Source of the DNA: a virus
UHGV virus genome: UHGV-0347332
Length of the DNA: 27,668 nucleotides
Reading direction: 5' to 3' (one strand)
In this document: positions 21,620-22,311 of the stretch, piece after piece
Layout of the letters: every line of letters begins with the position of its first letter
Position numbering within the stretch: the stretch's first letter is position 1
Made by a program: the position numbers and the translations under genes
Notes under the pieces: model-generated
Told to the model about the DNA's origin: nothing
The model's database searches: none
Seen by the model: the letters and a program-made list of their open reading frames with translations, nothing else

Positions 21620-21724
21620 GGATATTTATCAGGATTTATCGGTTTCTGAGCCCTGGATATGTTTATCAGTTCCAGCCTGTTGCCTCAGGCTGCTAACAGG
21701 TCAATACAATCATGAGGATTATTT

Positions 21725-21997
21725 ATGGACAATAACACCATTTCTCTACAGGAGTTGCTCGACAGCATTTCCAGGCTTCGGGAAGACGTGAATACCCTTA
21801 CCGTCGCCTTCTCATATCTGGCATTCTCAATTCCAAGGGAACAGATGCAATCAACGCTGGCATCAATCCAGTTTGAATCATGCAATCCCAAATGGTCTCA
21901 GGAACAACAAGACTCTTTCAGGCGGCTTGCTGTATTACTGGATGAAAAATATGCTGGTAAAATTACCATTTCGGCGGACTCTTCAGAGAACCCGTAA
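21725..21997 (+). CDS. Hypothetical 90-aa protein, convergent with and overlapping the 114-aa gene
   Basis: GAGGA Shine-Dalgarno 8 nt upstream; lower GC; no recognisable motif. Confidence 0.45.
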   Translation: MDNNTISLQELLDSISRLREDVNTLTVAFSYLAFSIPREQMQSTLASIQFESCNPKWSQEQQDSFRRLAVLLDEKYAGKITISADSSENP

Positions 21998-22307
21998 TTA
22001 TTCCCGGTAGTTTTCCTCTGTAGGTTATCAACACATCCTGCGCCTCTAAAATTACGGGGCGCTTTTCCGGCGACTGCTCATCCCCTTCACATAACCCGGC
22101 AGCAACATCCAGGAAGACCTGTCTGATGCTCCTTCTGGCTGCTGCCTCATAAAACTCCAGCGCGGCACCTTCAACACGGTCCAGCGAGATGTCCAGGTCA
22201 AAAATTTCACCGTCAAAGCGTTTTTTGTCCCGTAACGCTAAAGTTACCGTAACTTTATTCTCAAAATTGCGGATCCCTTTCACAATCAGTTCATAGTTTT
22301 GAGTCAT
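21963..22307 (-). CDS. Hypothetical 114-aa soluble protein inserted between pinholin and endolysin
   Basis: ATG 5 nt after the holin stop with GGGAGAG upstream; no transmembrane segment; unrecognised. Confidence 0.55.
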   Translation of the reverse strand: MTQNYELIVKGIRNFENKVTVTLALRDKKRFDGEIFDLDISLDRVEGAALEFYEAAARRSIRQVFLDVAAGLCEGDEQSPEKRPVILEAQDVLITYRGKLPGIITGSLKSPPKW

Positions 22308-22311
22308 TGAA

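What the first reader, a model, noticed from the sequence alone, without database searches (positions are those of the whole stretch)
21620..22311. Two convergent, overlapping small genes inserted between pinholin and SAR endolysin
In phage 21-type lysis cassettes the pinholin and SAR endolysin genes are adjacent. Here they are separated by ~700 bp containing a 114-aa soluble protein (coupled to the pinholin stop, good Shine-Dalgarno) and a 90-aa protein on the opposite strand (own Shine-Dalgarno) whose 3' ends overlap by 35 nt. The endolysin ATG also lacks an obvious Shine-Dalgarno. Convergent overlap would give antisense coupling between the two; a lysis-timing or toxin-antitoxin-like role is possible but speculative.
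Basis: partly seen in the sequence, partly recalled or inferred. Interest (0 to 1): 0.55.

Follow-up and report, generated by a model that had tools for sequence, protein, structure and literature searches.

The report
Moron gene pair splitting a lysis cassette
The two small convergent genes between the phage's holin and endolysin are real, but they are a common add-on ("moron") of E. coli prophages, namely a YdfR-family gene plus an oppositely oriented accessory gene that carries its own conserved leader, and nothing found here shows they act as a lysis timer or a toxin-antitoxin pair.

Summary
On the minus strand, a phage-21-type pinholin (22312-22527) and a SAR endolysin (21086-21619) are separated by 692 bp. 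This spacer holds a 114-aa ORF (21963-22307, -) and a 90-aa ORF (21725-21997, +), whose 3' ends overlap by 35 nt.

The 114-aa protein belongs to the YdfR/DUF1327 family; K-12 Qin has essQ-ydfR-rrrQ. The 90-aa ORF is PHROG 2411, function unknown. It is a genuine gene: dN/dS is 0.14-0.24 and changes concentrate at third codon positions.

The same locus covers at least 80% of the query in 1533 of 5426 complete E. coli genomes. Among 69 viral contigs with this pinholin, only 11 have S and R adjacent.

orf90 follows a ~100-nt conserved leader with a covarying hairpin. That leader precedes at least 13 unrelated small ORFs, all antisense to the neighbouring late genes, at the ydfR-R junction, between tail genes, and elsewhere. 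Examples are HK022 gene 23 and ES18 gene 25, both annotated as morons. In ES18 the convergent partner is again a DUF1327 gene.

My reading is a mobile moron module. ydfR is made with the late genes; orf90 is probably made from the prophage. A lysis-timing or toxin-antitoxin role is not supported. Expression and function remain inferred. Interest is moderate to low.

The parts
22312..22527 (-). Phage-21-type pinholin S (71 codons, dual start Met1/Met4). The mechanical ORF runs up to 22605.
   Evidence: PF04971 at 111 bits and phrog_9876/20 'holin'. RefSeq homologue WP_000284510.1 is a 71-aa 'class II holin family protein'.
22315..22322 (-). Shine-Dalgarno GGGGAGAG embedded in the 3' end of S. 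It serves ydfR here and serves R in S-R-adjacent relatives.
   Evidence: Sequence. Junction comparison: GGGGAGAGTAA-GCTG-ATG(R) versus GGGGAGAGTAA-TTCA-ATG(ydfR).
22074..22307 (-). ydfR core: the DUF1327 domain, residues 1 to about 78, predicted as three beta strands plus one helix.
   Evidence: PF07041 E 7e-43. AF2 model gives E5-14, E18-27, E34-43, H50-73. dN/dS is about 0.4 against the most diverged allele. K-12 YdfR residues 1-72 bind the RNase E N-terminal domain (PMC13232886).
21963..22073 (-). ydfR C-terminal tail (residues about 79-114, ...PEKRPVILEAQDVLITYRGKLPGIITGSLKSPPKW). It is encoded on the strand opposite the orf90 3' end, 3' UTR and terminator-like hairpin. It recombines independently of the core.
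   Evidence: pLDDT below 50. The YdfR C-terminus switches with the downstream module (104, 114, 116 and 169-329 aa forms). In allele L088 the core has dS 0.41 while the tail has only 4 differences in 24 codons (dS 0.06).
21725..21997 (+). orf90: a 90-aa acidic (pI 4.5) three-helix protein, PHROG 2411, function unknown, antisense to the late operon.
   Evidence: phrog_2411 E 1e-58. 62 clusters found, named sources mostly Escherichia and Shigella. dN/dS 0.14-0.24. AF2 pLDDT 71 with helices 8-35, 38-52 and 59-77. No fold or sequence match in PDB or BFVD. 19 clusters at 50% identity in 1.84 billion representatives.
21963..21997 (.). 35-nt 3'-3' overlap of ydfR and orf90.
   Evidence: Coordinates. 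Comparable 3'-3' overlaps occur in other pairs: 53 nt in PhiR12, 59-68 nt in L143 and L110, 81 nt in HK022 and 7 nt in L214.
21620..21724 (+). Conserved leader of the antisense cassette: block A GGATATTTATCAGGATTTATCGG (21620-21642), block B CCCTGGATATGTT (21651-21663, a candidate -10 of form TAnnnT), hairpin CAGCCTG-ttgcct-CAGGCTG (21673-21692) and SD GAGGA (21714-21718).
   Evidence: The same leader precedes at least 13 unrelated cargo ORFs at three or more late-region sites. It is present in HK022, ES18 and HK633 upstream of annotated moron genes. The hairpin covaries: 5 of 7 pairs show changes on both sides. GC is 41% against 54-55% in S and R. There is no Rfam match.
22040..22066 (+). Weak terminator-like hairpin (GCGCC...GGCGC) plus TTTT, 43 nt after the orf90 stop and inside ydfR codons about 81-89. 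It is the likely 3' end of the orf90 transcription unit and the right edge of the moron.
   Evidence: RNAfold scan, conserved in alleles L010 and L007. Hairpins with a T-rich tail also follow the cargo ORFs in PhiR12, Evi, ES18 (annotated there as a terminator) and HK022 (by eye). It did not pass the stricter scan.
21086..21619 (-). SAR endolysin (rrrQ-like lysozyme). Its start has no Shine-Dalgarno.
   Evidence: PF00959 and phrog_7. RefSeq names it 'rrrQ: lysozyme'. Upstream sequences compared.
19949..20443 (-). Rz spanin (context only). The likely start is Met29 of the mechanical ORF 19949-20527.
   Evidence: PF03245 E 7e-51; phrog_13 matches residues 29-183.

Best explanation
The 692 bp between the pinholin and the SAR endolysin is accessory 'moron' DNA that has split a phage-21-type lysis cassette. 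It has two parts.

(1) ydfR (DUF1327 family) lies in the late-operon direction. It has taken over the ribosome-binding site embedded in the end of S, so it should be made together with the pinholin once Q-dependent late transcription starts. Its only experimentally reported property is for the K-12 homologue: binding to the catalytic half of RNase E and co-purification with RNA. It is therefore most likely a late-expressed host-RNA-metabolism or accessory factor rather than a lysis protein.

(2) An independent, oppositely oriented transcription unit consists of a ~100-nt conserved leader (promoter region plus a 5' hairpin), orf90, and a weak terminator that lies inside ydfR. The ydfR reading frame runs on through the antisense strand of this unit's 3' part. 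That produces the YdfR C-terminal tail and the 35-nt overlap, which are by-products of the insertion.

By analogy with characterised morons, and with phi80 taiEcA, a gene embedded antisense in the Q-dependent late operon, orf90 is expected to be transcribed from the repressed prophage. It would be damped by head-on late transcription after induction.

Shown here:
- Both genes are real.
- The locus is an insertion.
- The Shine-Dalgarno of S has been reassigned from R to ydfR.
- The slot is mosaic, with interchangeable contents.
- The leader is shared by many unrelated cargo genes at several late-region sites.
- The leader hairpin covaries.
- The inserted DNA has lower GC than S and R.
- Deletions and an IS insertion that remove orf90 or cut it off from its leader are common.

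Inferred, not shown:
- The promoter's activity and the timing of expression.
- Any antisense damping.
- The biochemical roles of both proteins.
For: Identity of the genes:
- DUF1327 hit at E 7e-43 and PHROG 2411 at E 1e-58.
- RefSeq annotates 'class II holin / YdfR family protein / hypothetical protein / lysozyme'. 1533 of 5426 complete E. coli genomes hold a locus covering at least 80% of the query.
- K-12 Qin is essQ-ydfR-rrrQ with no antisense gene.

Insertion and mosaic structure:
- Pinholin-anchored census of 69 loci: 11 S-R adjacent, 12 with ydfR+orf90, 20 with ydfR only, the rest other ydfR variants.
- The Shine-Dalgarno in the S 3' end is used by R or by ydfR depending on the arrangement.
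- At least 6 different antisense ORFs occupy the ydfR-R slot.

orf90 is a gene:
- dN/dS is 0.14-0.24.

Shared leader:
- It appears in 47 non-identical occurrences with at least 13 cargo families. About half are not next to an endolysin.
- The hairpin covaries.
- The leader is present upstream of HK022 gene 23 'srb', ES18 gene 25 and HK633 gp65. The first two are annotated as morons, and ES18 has annotated terminators.
- ES18 gp24, the convergent partner there, is DUF1327 at 30.7 bits.
- The ES18 pair and the L170 pair are homologous on both sides (49% and 55%) at two different sites.
- An orf90 homologue (41% identity) sits between tail genes M and L behind the same leader.

Moron hallmarks:
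- GC is 41-47% against 54-55% for S and R.
- Terminator-like hairpins follow the cargo ORFs.
- The published definition of a moron is given in PMC3594210.

Dispensability of orf90:
- Internal deletions leave leader and 3' remnants (the 390 and 410 nt spacer types).
- ISEc52 lies between the hairpin and the RBS in ST131 genomes.

Functional leads from the literature:
- YdfR binds the RNase E N-terminal domain and RNA (PMC13232886).
Against: - No canonical sigma-70 promoter was found in the leader by the consensus scan, on either strand. The -35 position is not conserved.
- The orf90 terminator candidate is weak (a 5-bp GC stem and four T) and failed the stricter scan.
- No expression data were available for any member.
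- ydfR lies between S and R in most relatives of this pinholin. In K-12 it is translationally linked to both neighbours (4-nt gap to S, stop overlapping the R start). That would also fit a genuine, still unknown role in lysis.
- The recurrent pairing of a late-sense gene with an antisense gene at different sites could mean the two proteins work together, which this explanation leaves open.
- The RNase E interaction was shown for the 103-aa K-12 protein, whose C-terminus differs. Its overexpression had little effect on the transcriptome.
Confidence: 0.68

Rival explanations
1. Defence and counter-defence pair in a 'noncontiguous operon', as with phi80 taiEcA/atiEcA. orf90 would be an anti-phage or other lysogen-beneficial effector made constitutively from the prophage. 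The adjacent late-sense protein, YdfR or its cassette-specific C-terminal tail, would be made only after induction and neutralise orf90 so that the phage does not harm itself. This is a specific sub-case of the moron reading.
For: - The architecture matches the phi80 case: one gene antisense inside the Q-dependent late operon, next to a small late-sense gene.
- Late-sense and antisense partners move together between sites. ES18 gp24/gp25 and the L170 pair are 49% and 55% identical.
- At both the S-R site and the tail M-L site, the late-sense ORF keeps a constant N-terminus while its C-terminus switches with the antisense cargo.
- The cargo set is very diverse, as expected for arms-race genes.
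- In phi80 lacking the counter-defence gene, escape mutants carried a transposase insertion in the defence gene. Here an ISEc52 separates orf90 from its leader in ST131.
Against: - No PADLOC, Pfam or NCBIfam hit for either protein.
- phi80 was not among the phage records carrying this leader.
- ydfR occurs widely without any antisense partner, and orf90 occurs with ydfR destroyed.
- The tail-cargo linkage is explained more simply by physical overlap: the tail is the antisense of the cargo's 3' UTR and terminator.
- The tail has too few substitutions to show protein-level selection.
- The resemblance between the YdfR tail and the L214 71-aa tail is by eye only; BLASTP finds nothing.
Confidence: 0.2
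2. Lysis-timing module. YdfR would modulate pinholin or SAR-endolysin function, or the S:R expression ratio. Convergent orf90 transcription would give antisense control of the lysis genes.
For: - Position inside the lysis cassette.
- ydfR has taken over the S-embedded Shine-Dalgarno and R has none.
- ydfR or a relative is present in most loci with this pinholin.
- In K-12, ydfR is tightly packed between essQ and rrrQ.
- The discussion of PMC13232886 cites a genetic screen that linked ydfR to envelope integrity.
Against: - DUF1327 genes with antisense partners also sit between tail genes in ES18, and orf90 homologues sit between tail genes in L214.
- 11 of 69 close relatives do without any insert.
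- Both proteins lack transmembrane segments and any similarity to known antiholins or lysis regulators.
- R lacks a Shine-Dalgarno in all ydfR arrangements, whether or not orf90 is present.
- orf90 is often deleted or separated from its leader by an IS.
Confidence: 0.1
3. Toxin-antitoxin-like pair, or only one of the two ORFs is a real gene.
For: Two small adjacent genes with overlapping ends. Type I systems use antisense overlap.
Against: - Both frames are under protein-level purifying selection, and both belong to protein families.
- The genes are convergent, not co-transcribed.
- There is no hydrophobic peptide and no toxin or antitoxin domain hit.
- Each gene is found without the other.
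Confidence: 0.03

Closest known systems
E. coli K-12 Qin prophage essQ-ydfR-rrrQ (YdfR, P76160; Pfam DUF1327)
   Same: - Same protein family (145 bits).
- Same position between a class II holin and a SAR-type lysozyme.
- Same 4-nt spacing after the holin stop.
   Different: - K-12 YdfR is 103 aa with a different, helical C-terminus, and its stop overlaps the rrrQ start.
- K-12 has no leader and no antisense gene.
- The window protein is 114 aa, with a tail encoded opposite the orf90 3' region.
Moron pairs of lambdoid phages: HK022 genes 22/23 ('srb') and ES18 genes 24/25
   Same: - Same conserved leader upstream of the antisense gene.
- Convergent arrangement; the 3' ends overlap in HK022 and are adjacent in ES18.
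- Location inside the late operon.
- Lower GC than the flanks (measured for the window only).
- In ES18 the late-sense partner is also DUF1327.
- Both are annotated as morons, with terminators annotated in ES18.
   Different: - Those pairs sit between tail genes (I-J in HK022, M-L in ES18), not in the lysis cassette.
- The cargo proteins are unrelated to orf90 (hhalign probability at most 25%).
- At the tail site the leader is preceded by a strong late-sense terminator, which is absent here because the R start follows directly.
phi80 taiEcA/atiEcA 'noncontiguous operon' (He et al. 2024, PMC11364771)
   Same: One gene transcribed against the Q-dependent late operon, next to a small late-sense gene. 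In phi80 the antisense gene is expressed in the lysogen and reduced when Q is on. This is the model used here for how orf90 is probably expressed.
   Different: - TaiEcA is a 26-kDa protein.
- Sequence relatedness to orf90 or YdfR could not be tested because the Tai and Ati sequences were not in hand.
- phi80 does not carry this leader at blastn sensitivity.
- No defence activity is known for orf90.
Phage 21 lysis cassette S21-R21-Rz/Rz1
   Same: - Pinholin with a dual start.
- SAR endolysin.
- Rz downstream.
- The Shine-Dalgarno embedded in the S 3' end.
   Different: - S and R are not adjacent here.
- The S-embedded Shine-Dalgarno drives ydfR instead of R.
- A further ~560 nt of small ORFs separates R from Rz.
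Phage proteins that target RNase E (T4 Srd, phiKZ Dip, T7 gp0.7); from my own knowledge
   Same: If YdfR acts as its K-12 homologue's binding data suggest, it would be a phage-encoded RNase E-binding protein.
   Different: - No sequence relationship.
- An effect of YdfR on RNase E activity has not been shown.

Membership tests
YdfR / DUF1327 (PF07041) | Sequence match to the family model above the curated cut-off | tested here: met
   145.2 bits against a cut-off of 25, E 7e-43, covering residues 1-111. RefSeq homologue WP_000193278.1 is named 'YdfR family protein'.
YdfR / DUF1327 (PF07041) | Binding to the RNase E N-terminal domain, and RNA co-purification (reported for K-12 YdfR) | not testable with these tools
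   Known only from PMC13232886. The window protein shares the 1-72 core, which sufficed for binding there.
Moron (Juhala et al. 2000, as summarised in PMC3594210) | Extra DNA relative to otherwise syntenic relatives | tested here: met
   11 of 69 loci with a 99-100% identical pinholin have S and R adjacent. Others have ydfR only or other inserts.
Moron (Juhala et al. 2000, as summarised in PMC3594210) | Base composition different from the surrounding genes | tested here: met
   Leader 41.0%, orf90 45.1% and ydfR core 47.4% GC, against S 53.7%, R 54.9% and the window 54.5%.
Moron (Juhala et al. 2000, as summarised in PMC3594210) | Own promoter | tested here: inconclusive
   A conserved ~100-nt leader travels with many different cargo genes. 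No canonical sigma-70 site was found by the scan. The only candidate is a TAnnnT element in block B.
Moron (Juhala et al. 2000, as summarised in PMC3594210) | Own terminator | tested here: inconclusive
   There is a weak hairpin plus TTTT at 22040-22066, which the stricter scan did not find. Sister cassettes have clear terminators: PhiR12 and Evi and ES18, where one is annotated.
Moron (Juhala et al. 2000, as summarised in PMC3594210) | Expression from the repressed prophage | not testable with these tools
   No transcript data were available.
Phage-21-type lysis cassette (pinholin + SAR endolysin) | S21-family holin with a dual start; endolysin with an N-terminal signal-anchor-release domain; adjacent, coupled S and R genes | tested here: not met
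   The holin (PF04971, MYQMEK start) and the lysozyme (PF00959, GLSAAVLALIAAGA N-terminus) are present. S and R are 692 bp apart, and R has lost the S-embedded Shine-Dalgarno.
Type II toxin-antitoxin | Co-transcribed adjacent genes with a recognisable toxin or antitoxin fold; obligate co-occurrence | tested here: not met
   The genes are convergent. There are no toxin or antitoxin hits in Pfam, NCBIfam or PADLOC. Each gene is found alone.
Type I toxin-antitoxin | Small hydrophobic toxin peptide plus a non-coding antisense RNA | tested here: not met
   Both products are hydrophilic (GRAVY -0.43 and -0.25), and both frames show protein-level constraint.
Tai/Ati defence and counter-defence (noncontiguous operon) | Defence gene antisense inside the Q-dependent late operon, next to a late-sense counter-defence gene | tested here: met
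   The architecture is the same. This is a resemblance of layout only.
Tai/Ati defence and counter-defence (noncontiguous operon) | Sequence homology to Tai or Ati proteins; tail-assembly inhibition; cognate binding | not tested
   Tai and Ati sequences were not in hand. PADLOC 2023 gives no hit. phi80 was not among the records carrying the leader. Activity needs experiments.
Known RNA families (Rfam 15) for the leader | Match to a curated covariance model | tested here: not met
   No hit in 21620-21724 at E up to 5. The only gathering-level hits in the window are STnc100 and two tRNAs.

The most novel reading that the evidence does not exclude
The conserved leader may mark an unrecognised family of exchangeable antisense cassettes in the late operons of enterobacterial lambdoid phages. 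One regulatory leader would drive many unrelated small lysogen-expressed proteins. Each would be paired with a late-sense partner (YdfR/DUF1327 or a coiled-coil ORF) whose cassette-specific C-terminus neutralises it after induction. This would be a general defence and counter-defence 'noncontiguous operon' system, with orf90/YdfR(114) as one member.
Probability: 0.15. Interest if true: 0.7.

Novelty: new member of a known kind. Interest (0 to 1): 0.33.

Why it matters
As stated, the finding is ordinary. Both genes are annotated in thousands of E. coli genomes. One belongs to a named family (YdfR/DUF1327), and the layout matches morons annotated in HK022 and ES18.

Two points could still be useful.

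First, the case shows concretely how a moron insertion rewires a lysis cassette. The ribosome-binding site inside S now serves ydfR, R is left without one, and a new C-terminus is grafted onto YdfR.

Second, I did not find the ~100-nt leader described in the papers I could search. It is shared by at least 13 unrelated small genes at several late-region sites, and it gives a simple sequence handle for collecting such antisense accessory genes. If they prove to be defence genes with late-sense neutralisers, as in phi80 Tai/Ati, this would open a sizeable new set of candidates. It would also give YdfR, so far linked only to RNase E binding, a biological setting.

Tried and rejected
- Sequence route. 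PDB profile searches found nothing. NCBIfam and PADLOC found nothing. The 'DUF1823' label on the PhiR12 antisense ORF is not supported (15 bits against a cut-off of 25).
- 'ybl58' (P0061, 44% identical). It looked like a distant homologue but is the same DNA with two compensating frameshifts.
- One superfamily for all cargo proteins. The hhalign probability is below 1% for all but the ES18-gp25-like family (25%). Rejected.
- The leader as a late-sense Hfq-type sRNA ending at the strong terminator seen at the tail site. Rejected as the general explanation. The terminator is absent at the ydfR-R site, where the leader is equally conserved. G-U wobbles in the hairpin favour the cargo-sense strand (17 wobble pairs against 7 C-A/A-C, by my count from the table). 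Rfam has no match.
- The leader as one of the published prophage sRNAs (AgvB, AsxR, Pas, STnc100). Those map upstream of the holin or downstream of PR', not here.
- YdfR tail compared with the tail of the L214 71-aa ORF (...GSLKSPPKW and ...GDLKKPPSY). The resemblance is by eye only, with no BLASTP hit. Selection on the tail could not be judged because there are too few substitutions.
- First motif-anchored census. It was biased because the motif is itself part of the leader. It was replaced by the pinholin-anchored census.
- Promoter search by consensus scan. Nothing convincing on either strand.
- Literature searches for ybl58 and the WP accessions. No papers.
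Full report
**1. What is there**

The lysis genes lie on the minus strand. The mechanical ORF list and the sequence show the following.

- A phage-21-type pinholin. The ORF runs 22312-22605, but homologues are 71 aa, so the start is 22527. It has a Met1/Met4 dual start.
- A 114-aa ORF at 21963-22307(-). Its ATG lies 4 nt after the pinholin stop, behind GGGGAGAG.
- A 90-aa ORF at 21725-21997(+), behind GAGGA.
- A 177-aa SAR-type lysozyme at 21086-21619(-), preceded by ...CTGATAAATATCC-ATG with no Shine-Dalgarno.
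- Rz further downstream.

The two small ORFs overlap by 35 nt at their 3' ends. Family scans confirm the holin (PF04971), lysozyme (PF00959) and Rz (PF03245). They assign the 114-aa protein to DUF1327 (E 7e-43) and the 90-aa protein to PHROG 2411, with no Pfam family.

**2. Are both genes real, and how common is the locus?**

Megablast against complete E. coli genomes finds a place covering at least 80% of the S-to-R stretch in 1533 of 5426 genomes. RefSeq annotates the four genes as 'class II holin family protein', 'YdfR family protein', 'hypothetical protein' (opposite strand) and 'lysozyme'.

The 90-aa ORF has 62 homologous clusters. Nearly all those with named sources are Escherichia or Shigella, plus one Citrobacter MAG and one record labelled Pseudomonas. 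Length is kept at 90 aa, and the conserved core reads ISRLRxDVNxLTVAFSYLAFSIP...ES.NPKWS. Across four alleles 72-83% identical in protein:

- Nei-Gojobori dN/dS is 0.14-0.24.
- Differences fall mainly on third codon positions, for example 8/3/20.
- No other frame is open in all alleles.

It is therefore a protein-coding gene. An apparent 44% homologue named 'ybl58' is the same DNA with two frameshifts. A profile search of 1.84 billion representatives finds only 19 clusters, so the family is small.

**3. The 114-aa gene is ydfR**

In K-12 the Qin prophage has essQ-ydfR-rrrQ. There ydfR is 103 aa, its stop overlaps the rrrQ start, and nothing lies on the other strand.

A 2026 study found that K-12 YdfR binds the catalytic N-terminal half of RNase E in two-hybrid and co-purification assays. 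Residues 1-72 were sufficient. The protein brought down RNA, and its overexpression changed few transcripts (PMC13232886).

**4. The slot is a mosaic hotspot**

I ran a census anchored on the pinholin alone, using 69 viral contigs with a 99-100% identical S and an R gene in reach.

| Arrangement between S and R | Loci |
|---|---|
| S and R adjacent | 11 |
| 690-nt ydfR+orf90 spacer | 12 |
| ydfR only (350-410 nt) | 20 |
| Other ydfR variants | remainder |

In the adjacent type the junction reads GGGGAGAGTAA-GCTG-ATG(R). In the ydfR types it reads GGGGAGAGTAA-TTCA-ATG(ydfR), and R follows ...ATAAATATC(C/T)-ATG, as it does in K-12. So the ribosome-binding site embedded in S has passed from R to ydfR. 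The lack of a Shine-Dalgarno before R is a property of all ydfR arrangements and not of the orf90 insertion.

YdfR itself is modular. It has a conserved core of about 78 residues and C-termini of many kinds, giving proteins of 72, 104, 114, 116 and 169-329 aa. Between the core and R, at least six different small ORFs occur on the opposite strand, or none at all. The 390-nt and 410-nt 'ydfR only' types still carry leader and orf90 3' remnants, so they are deletions of the antisense gene.

**5. A shared leader**

All these antisense ORFs are preceded by the same sequence of about 100 nt. In the window it consists of:

- block A, GGATATTTATCAGGATTTATCGG (21620-21642);
- block B, CCCTGGATATGTT (21651-21663);
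- a hairpin (21673-21692);
- the gene's own ribosome-binding site.

Scanning IMG/VR for the commoner variant of the leader (CCCTGGWTATGTT-N15-CAGYGGTGGG) gave 100 stretches and 47 non-identical occurrences. They carry at least 13 unrelated cargo families of 52-118 aa. One is DUF1883 and the rest have no known function. The orf90 leader has its own hairpin sequence and does not match that pattern, but it shares blocks A and B.

About half of these occurrences are not next to an endolysin. They lie between tail genes M and L, or upstream of a different holin. One tail-site cargo is a 41%-identical homologue of orf90.

The hairpin shows compensatory changes in 5 of 7 pairs. Its G-U wobbles favour the cargo-sense strand. 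The orf90 version has a different stem sequence at the same place. Rfam has no matching family.

**6. Link to described elements**

A blastn search of the leader against deposited phage genomes hits HK022, ES18, HK633, mEp213, mEp043 and several Salmonella phages.

- In HK022 the leader precedes gene 23 ('srb protein; moron gene product'). That gene converges on and overlaps gene 22 ('moron gene product'), between tail genes I and J.
- In ES18 it precedes gene 25 ('possible moron'). That gene converges on gene 24 between tail genes M and L, and both have annotated terminators.
- ES18 gp24 is itself a DUF1327 protein, at 30.7 bits against a cut-off of 25.
- The ES18 pair has homologues on both sides (49% and 55% identity) in a ydfR-R-site locus, L170.

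The unit that moves is therefore a convergent pair (or at least the antisense gene with its leader and terminator), and it is not tied to lysis genes.

The window locus also shows two further features used to define morons (PMC3594210). Its GC is lower: 41-47% against 54-55% for S and R. A terminator-like hairpin follows the gene at 22040-22066, weak here but clear in sister cassettes.

That hairpin lies in ydfR codons 81-89. This coincides with the point where the YdfR core and tail recombine independently. The YdfR tail and the 35-nt overlap are thus best read as ydfR running on through the antisense strand of the 3' part of the orf90 unit.

**7. How it most likely works**

*Shown:* the anatomy described above.

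*Inferred:*
- ydfR is translated with S once Q-dependent late transcription begins.
- orf90 is transcribed from its leader in the repressed prophage and is reduced by head-on late transcription after induction.

The closest experimental precedent is phi80. There taiEcA sits antisense in the Q-dependent operon, is present in the lysogen, and drops when Q is expressed. The neighbouring late-sense atiEcA neutralises it (PMC11364771).

Whether orf90 and YdfR have such a defence and counter-defence relationship is open. I give it about 0.2. The recurrent pairing speaks for it. Against it are the frequent solo occurrence of each gene, the absence of any family hit, and the simpler physical explanation for the tail-cargo linkage.

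A dedicated lysis-timing role gets about 0.1, and a toxin-antitoxin relationship about 0.03, for the reasons given under the rival explanations. orf90 appears dispensable. It is deleted in many relatives, and in ST131 genomes an ISEc52 separates it from its leader.

**8. Limits**

- No expression data were available.
- The consensus scan found no canonical sigma-70 promoter in the leader.
- The orf90 terminator is weak.
- The structure models are of moderate (orf90) or low (YdfR tail) confidence.
- The censuses are of IMG/VR contigs capped at 80 loci and are not a random sample.
- The original descriptions of the HK022 and ES18 morons (Juhala et al. 2000; the ES18 genome paper) were not readable here. 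I cannot say whether the shared leader was already noted there.

**9. Verdict**

The locus is a further member of a known kind of element, a lambdoid moron that includes a YdfR-family gene. Interest is modest. Its main value is the shared leader as a handle on a diverse, uncharacterised set of antisense prophage genes.

Noticed in passing
window 23645-23834 (-): STnc100 sRNA (Rfam RF02076, 132 bits, full length), lying between the Q antiterminator (26458-27141) and the lysis genes.
   Followed up: partly
window 22567-22595 (-): Strong intrinsic-terminator-like hairpin plus a T-run about 40 nt upstream of the pinholin start (22527). It may be a late-operon terminator that Q-modified polymerase reads through.
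   Followed up: no
window 22836-23039 (-): A 67-aa DUF1737 ORF that looks like the N-terminal remnant of a SASA/NanS-type esterase. In ST131 strain H105 a full-length 617-aa esterase occupies this position (L001).
   Followed up: partly
window 20528-21085 (-): About 560 nt between the SAR endolysin and Rz hold small membrane-like ORFs: 70 aa at 20796-21008, 43 aa at 20662-20793 and 33 aa at 20551-20652. RefSeq calls three hypothetical proteins here. This is a second insertion in the lysis cassette.
   Followed up: no
window 23284-23619 (+): A 111-aa ORF on the strand opposite the late genes. Its counterpart in L001 is annotated as the anti-adapter protein IraM. It has no Pfam hit.
   Followed up: no
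window 24531-24607 and 24708-24783 (-): Two prophage tRNA genes, Arg(tct) and a CAT-anticodon tRNA. ARAGORN calls the second one Met, while RefSeq annotates it as Ile in the related genome.
   Followed up: no
L001 6708-7877 (NZ_CP021454.1, ST131 strain H105, and the other top hits): An ISEc52 is inserted between the leader hairpin and the orf90 ribosome-binding site. It separates orf90 from its presumed promoter in these ST131-type genomes.
   Followed up: partly
L007-L009 (Logan SRR11015012 and related assemblies): orf90 is intact, but ydfR is reduced to frameshifted remnants (175 nt between orf90 and the holin). A ParD/ParE toxin-antitoxin pair follows the endolysin.
   Followed up: partly
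L214 3856-3873 (-); also L388 and L390 (HK022, ES18): At the tail-gene sites the leader is preceded by a strong late-sense terminator (AGCCACCTCCGGGTGGC + T7) that abuts the ribosome-binding site of the next tail gene. Its role is unexplained. It may end transcripts of the late-sense partner gene after they have crossed the whole antisense gene.
   Followed up: partly
L214 3966-3987, and many leaders listed: A second conserved element, AGAGGGATGGCTGATTACCTCT (a stem with the loop GATGGCTGATTA), lies just upstream of the cargo ribosome-binding site in many cassettes. It is absent from the orf90 leader. It contains a GGA motif, and its function is unknown.
   Followed up: no
L217 4001-4294 (GCA_016865525.2, CP075169.1): A distant orf90 homologue (P0192, 97 aa) sits in a chromosomal region with no recognisable phage genes among the called neighbours.
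   Followed up: no
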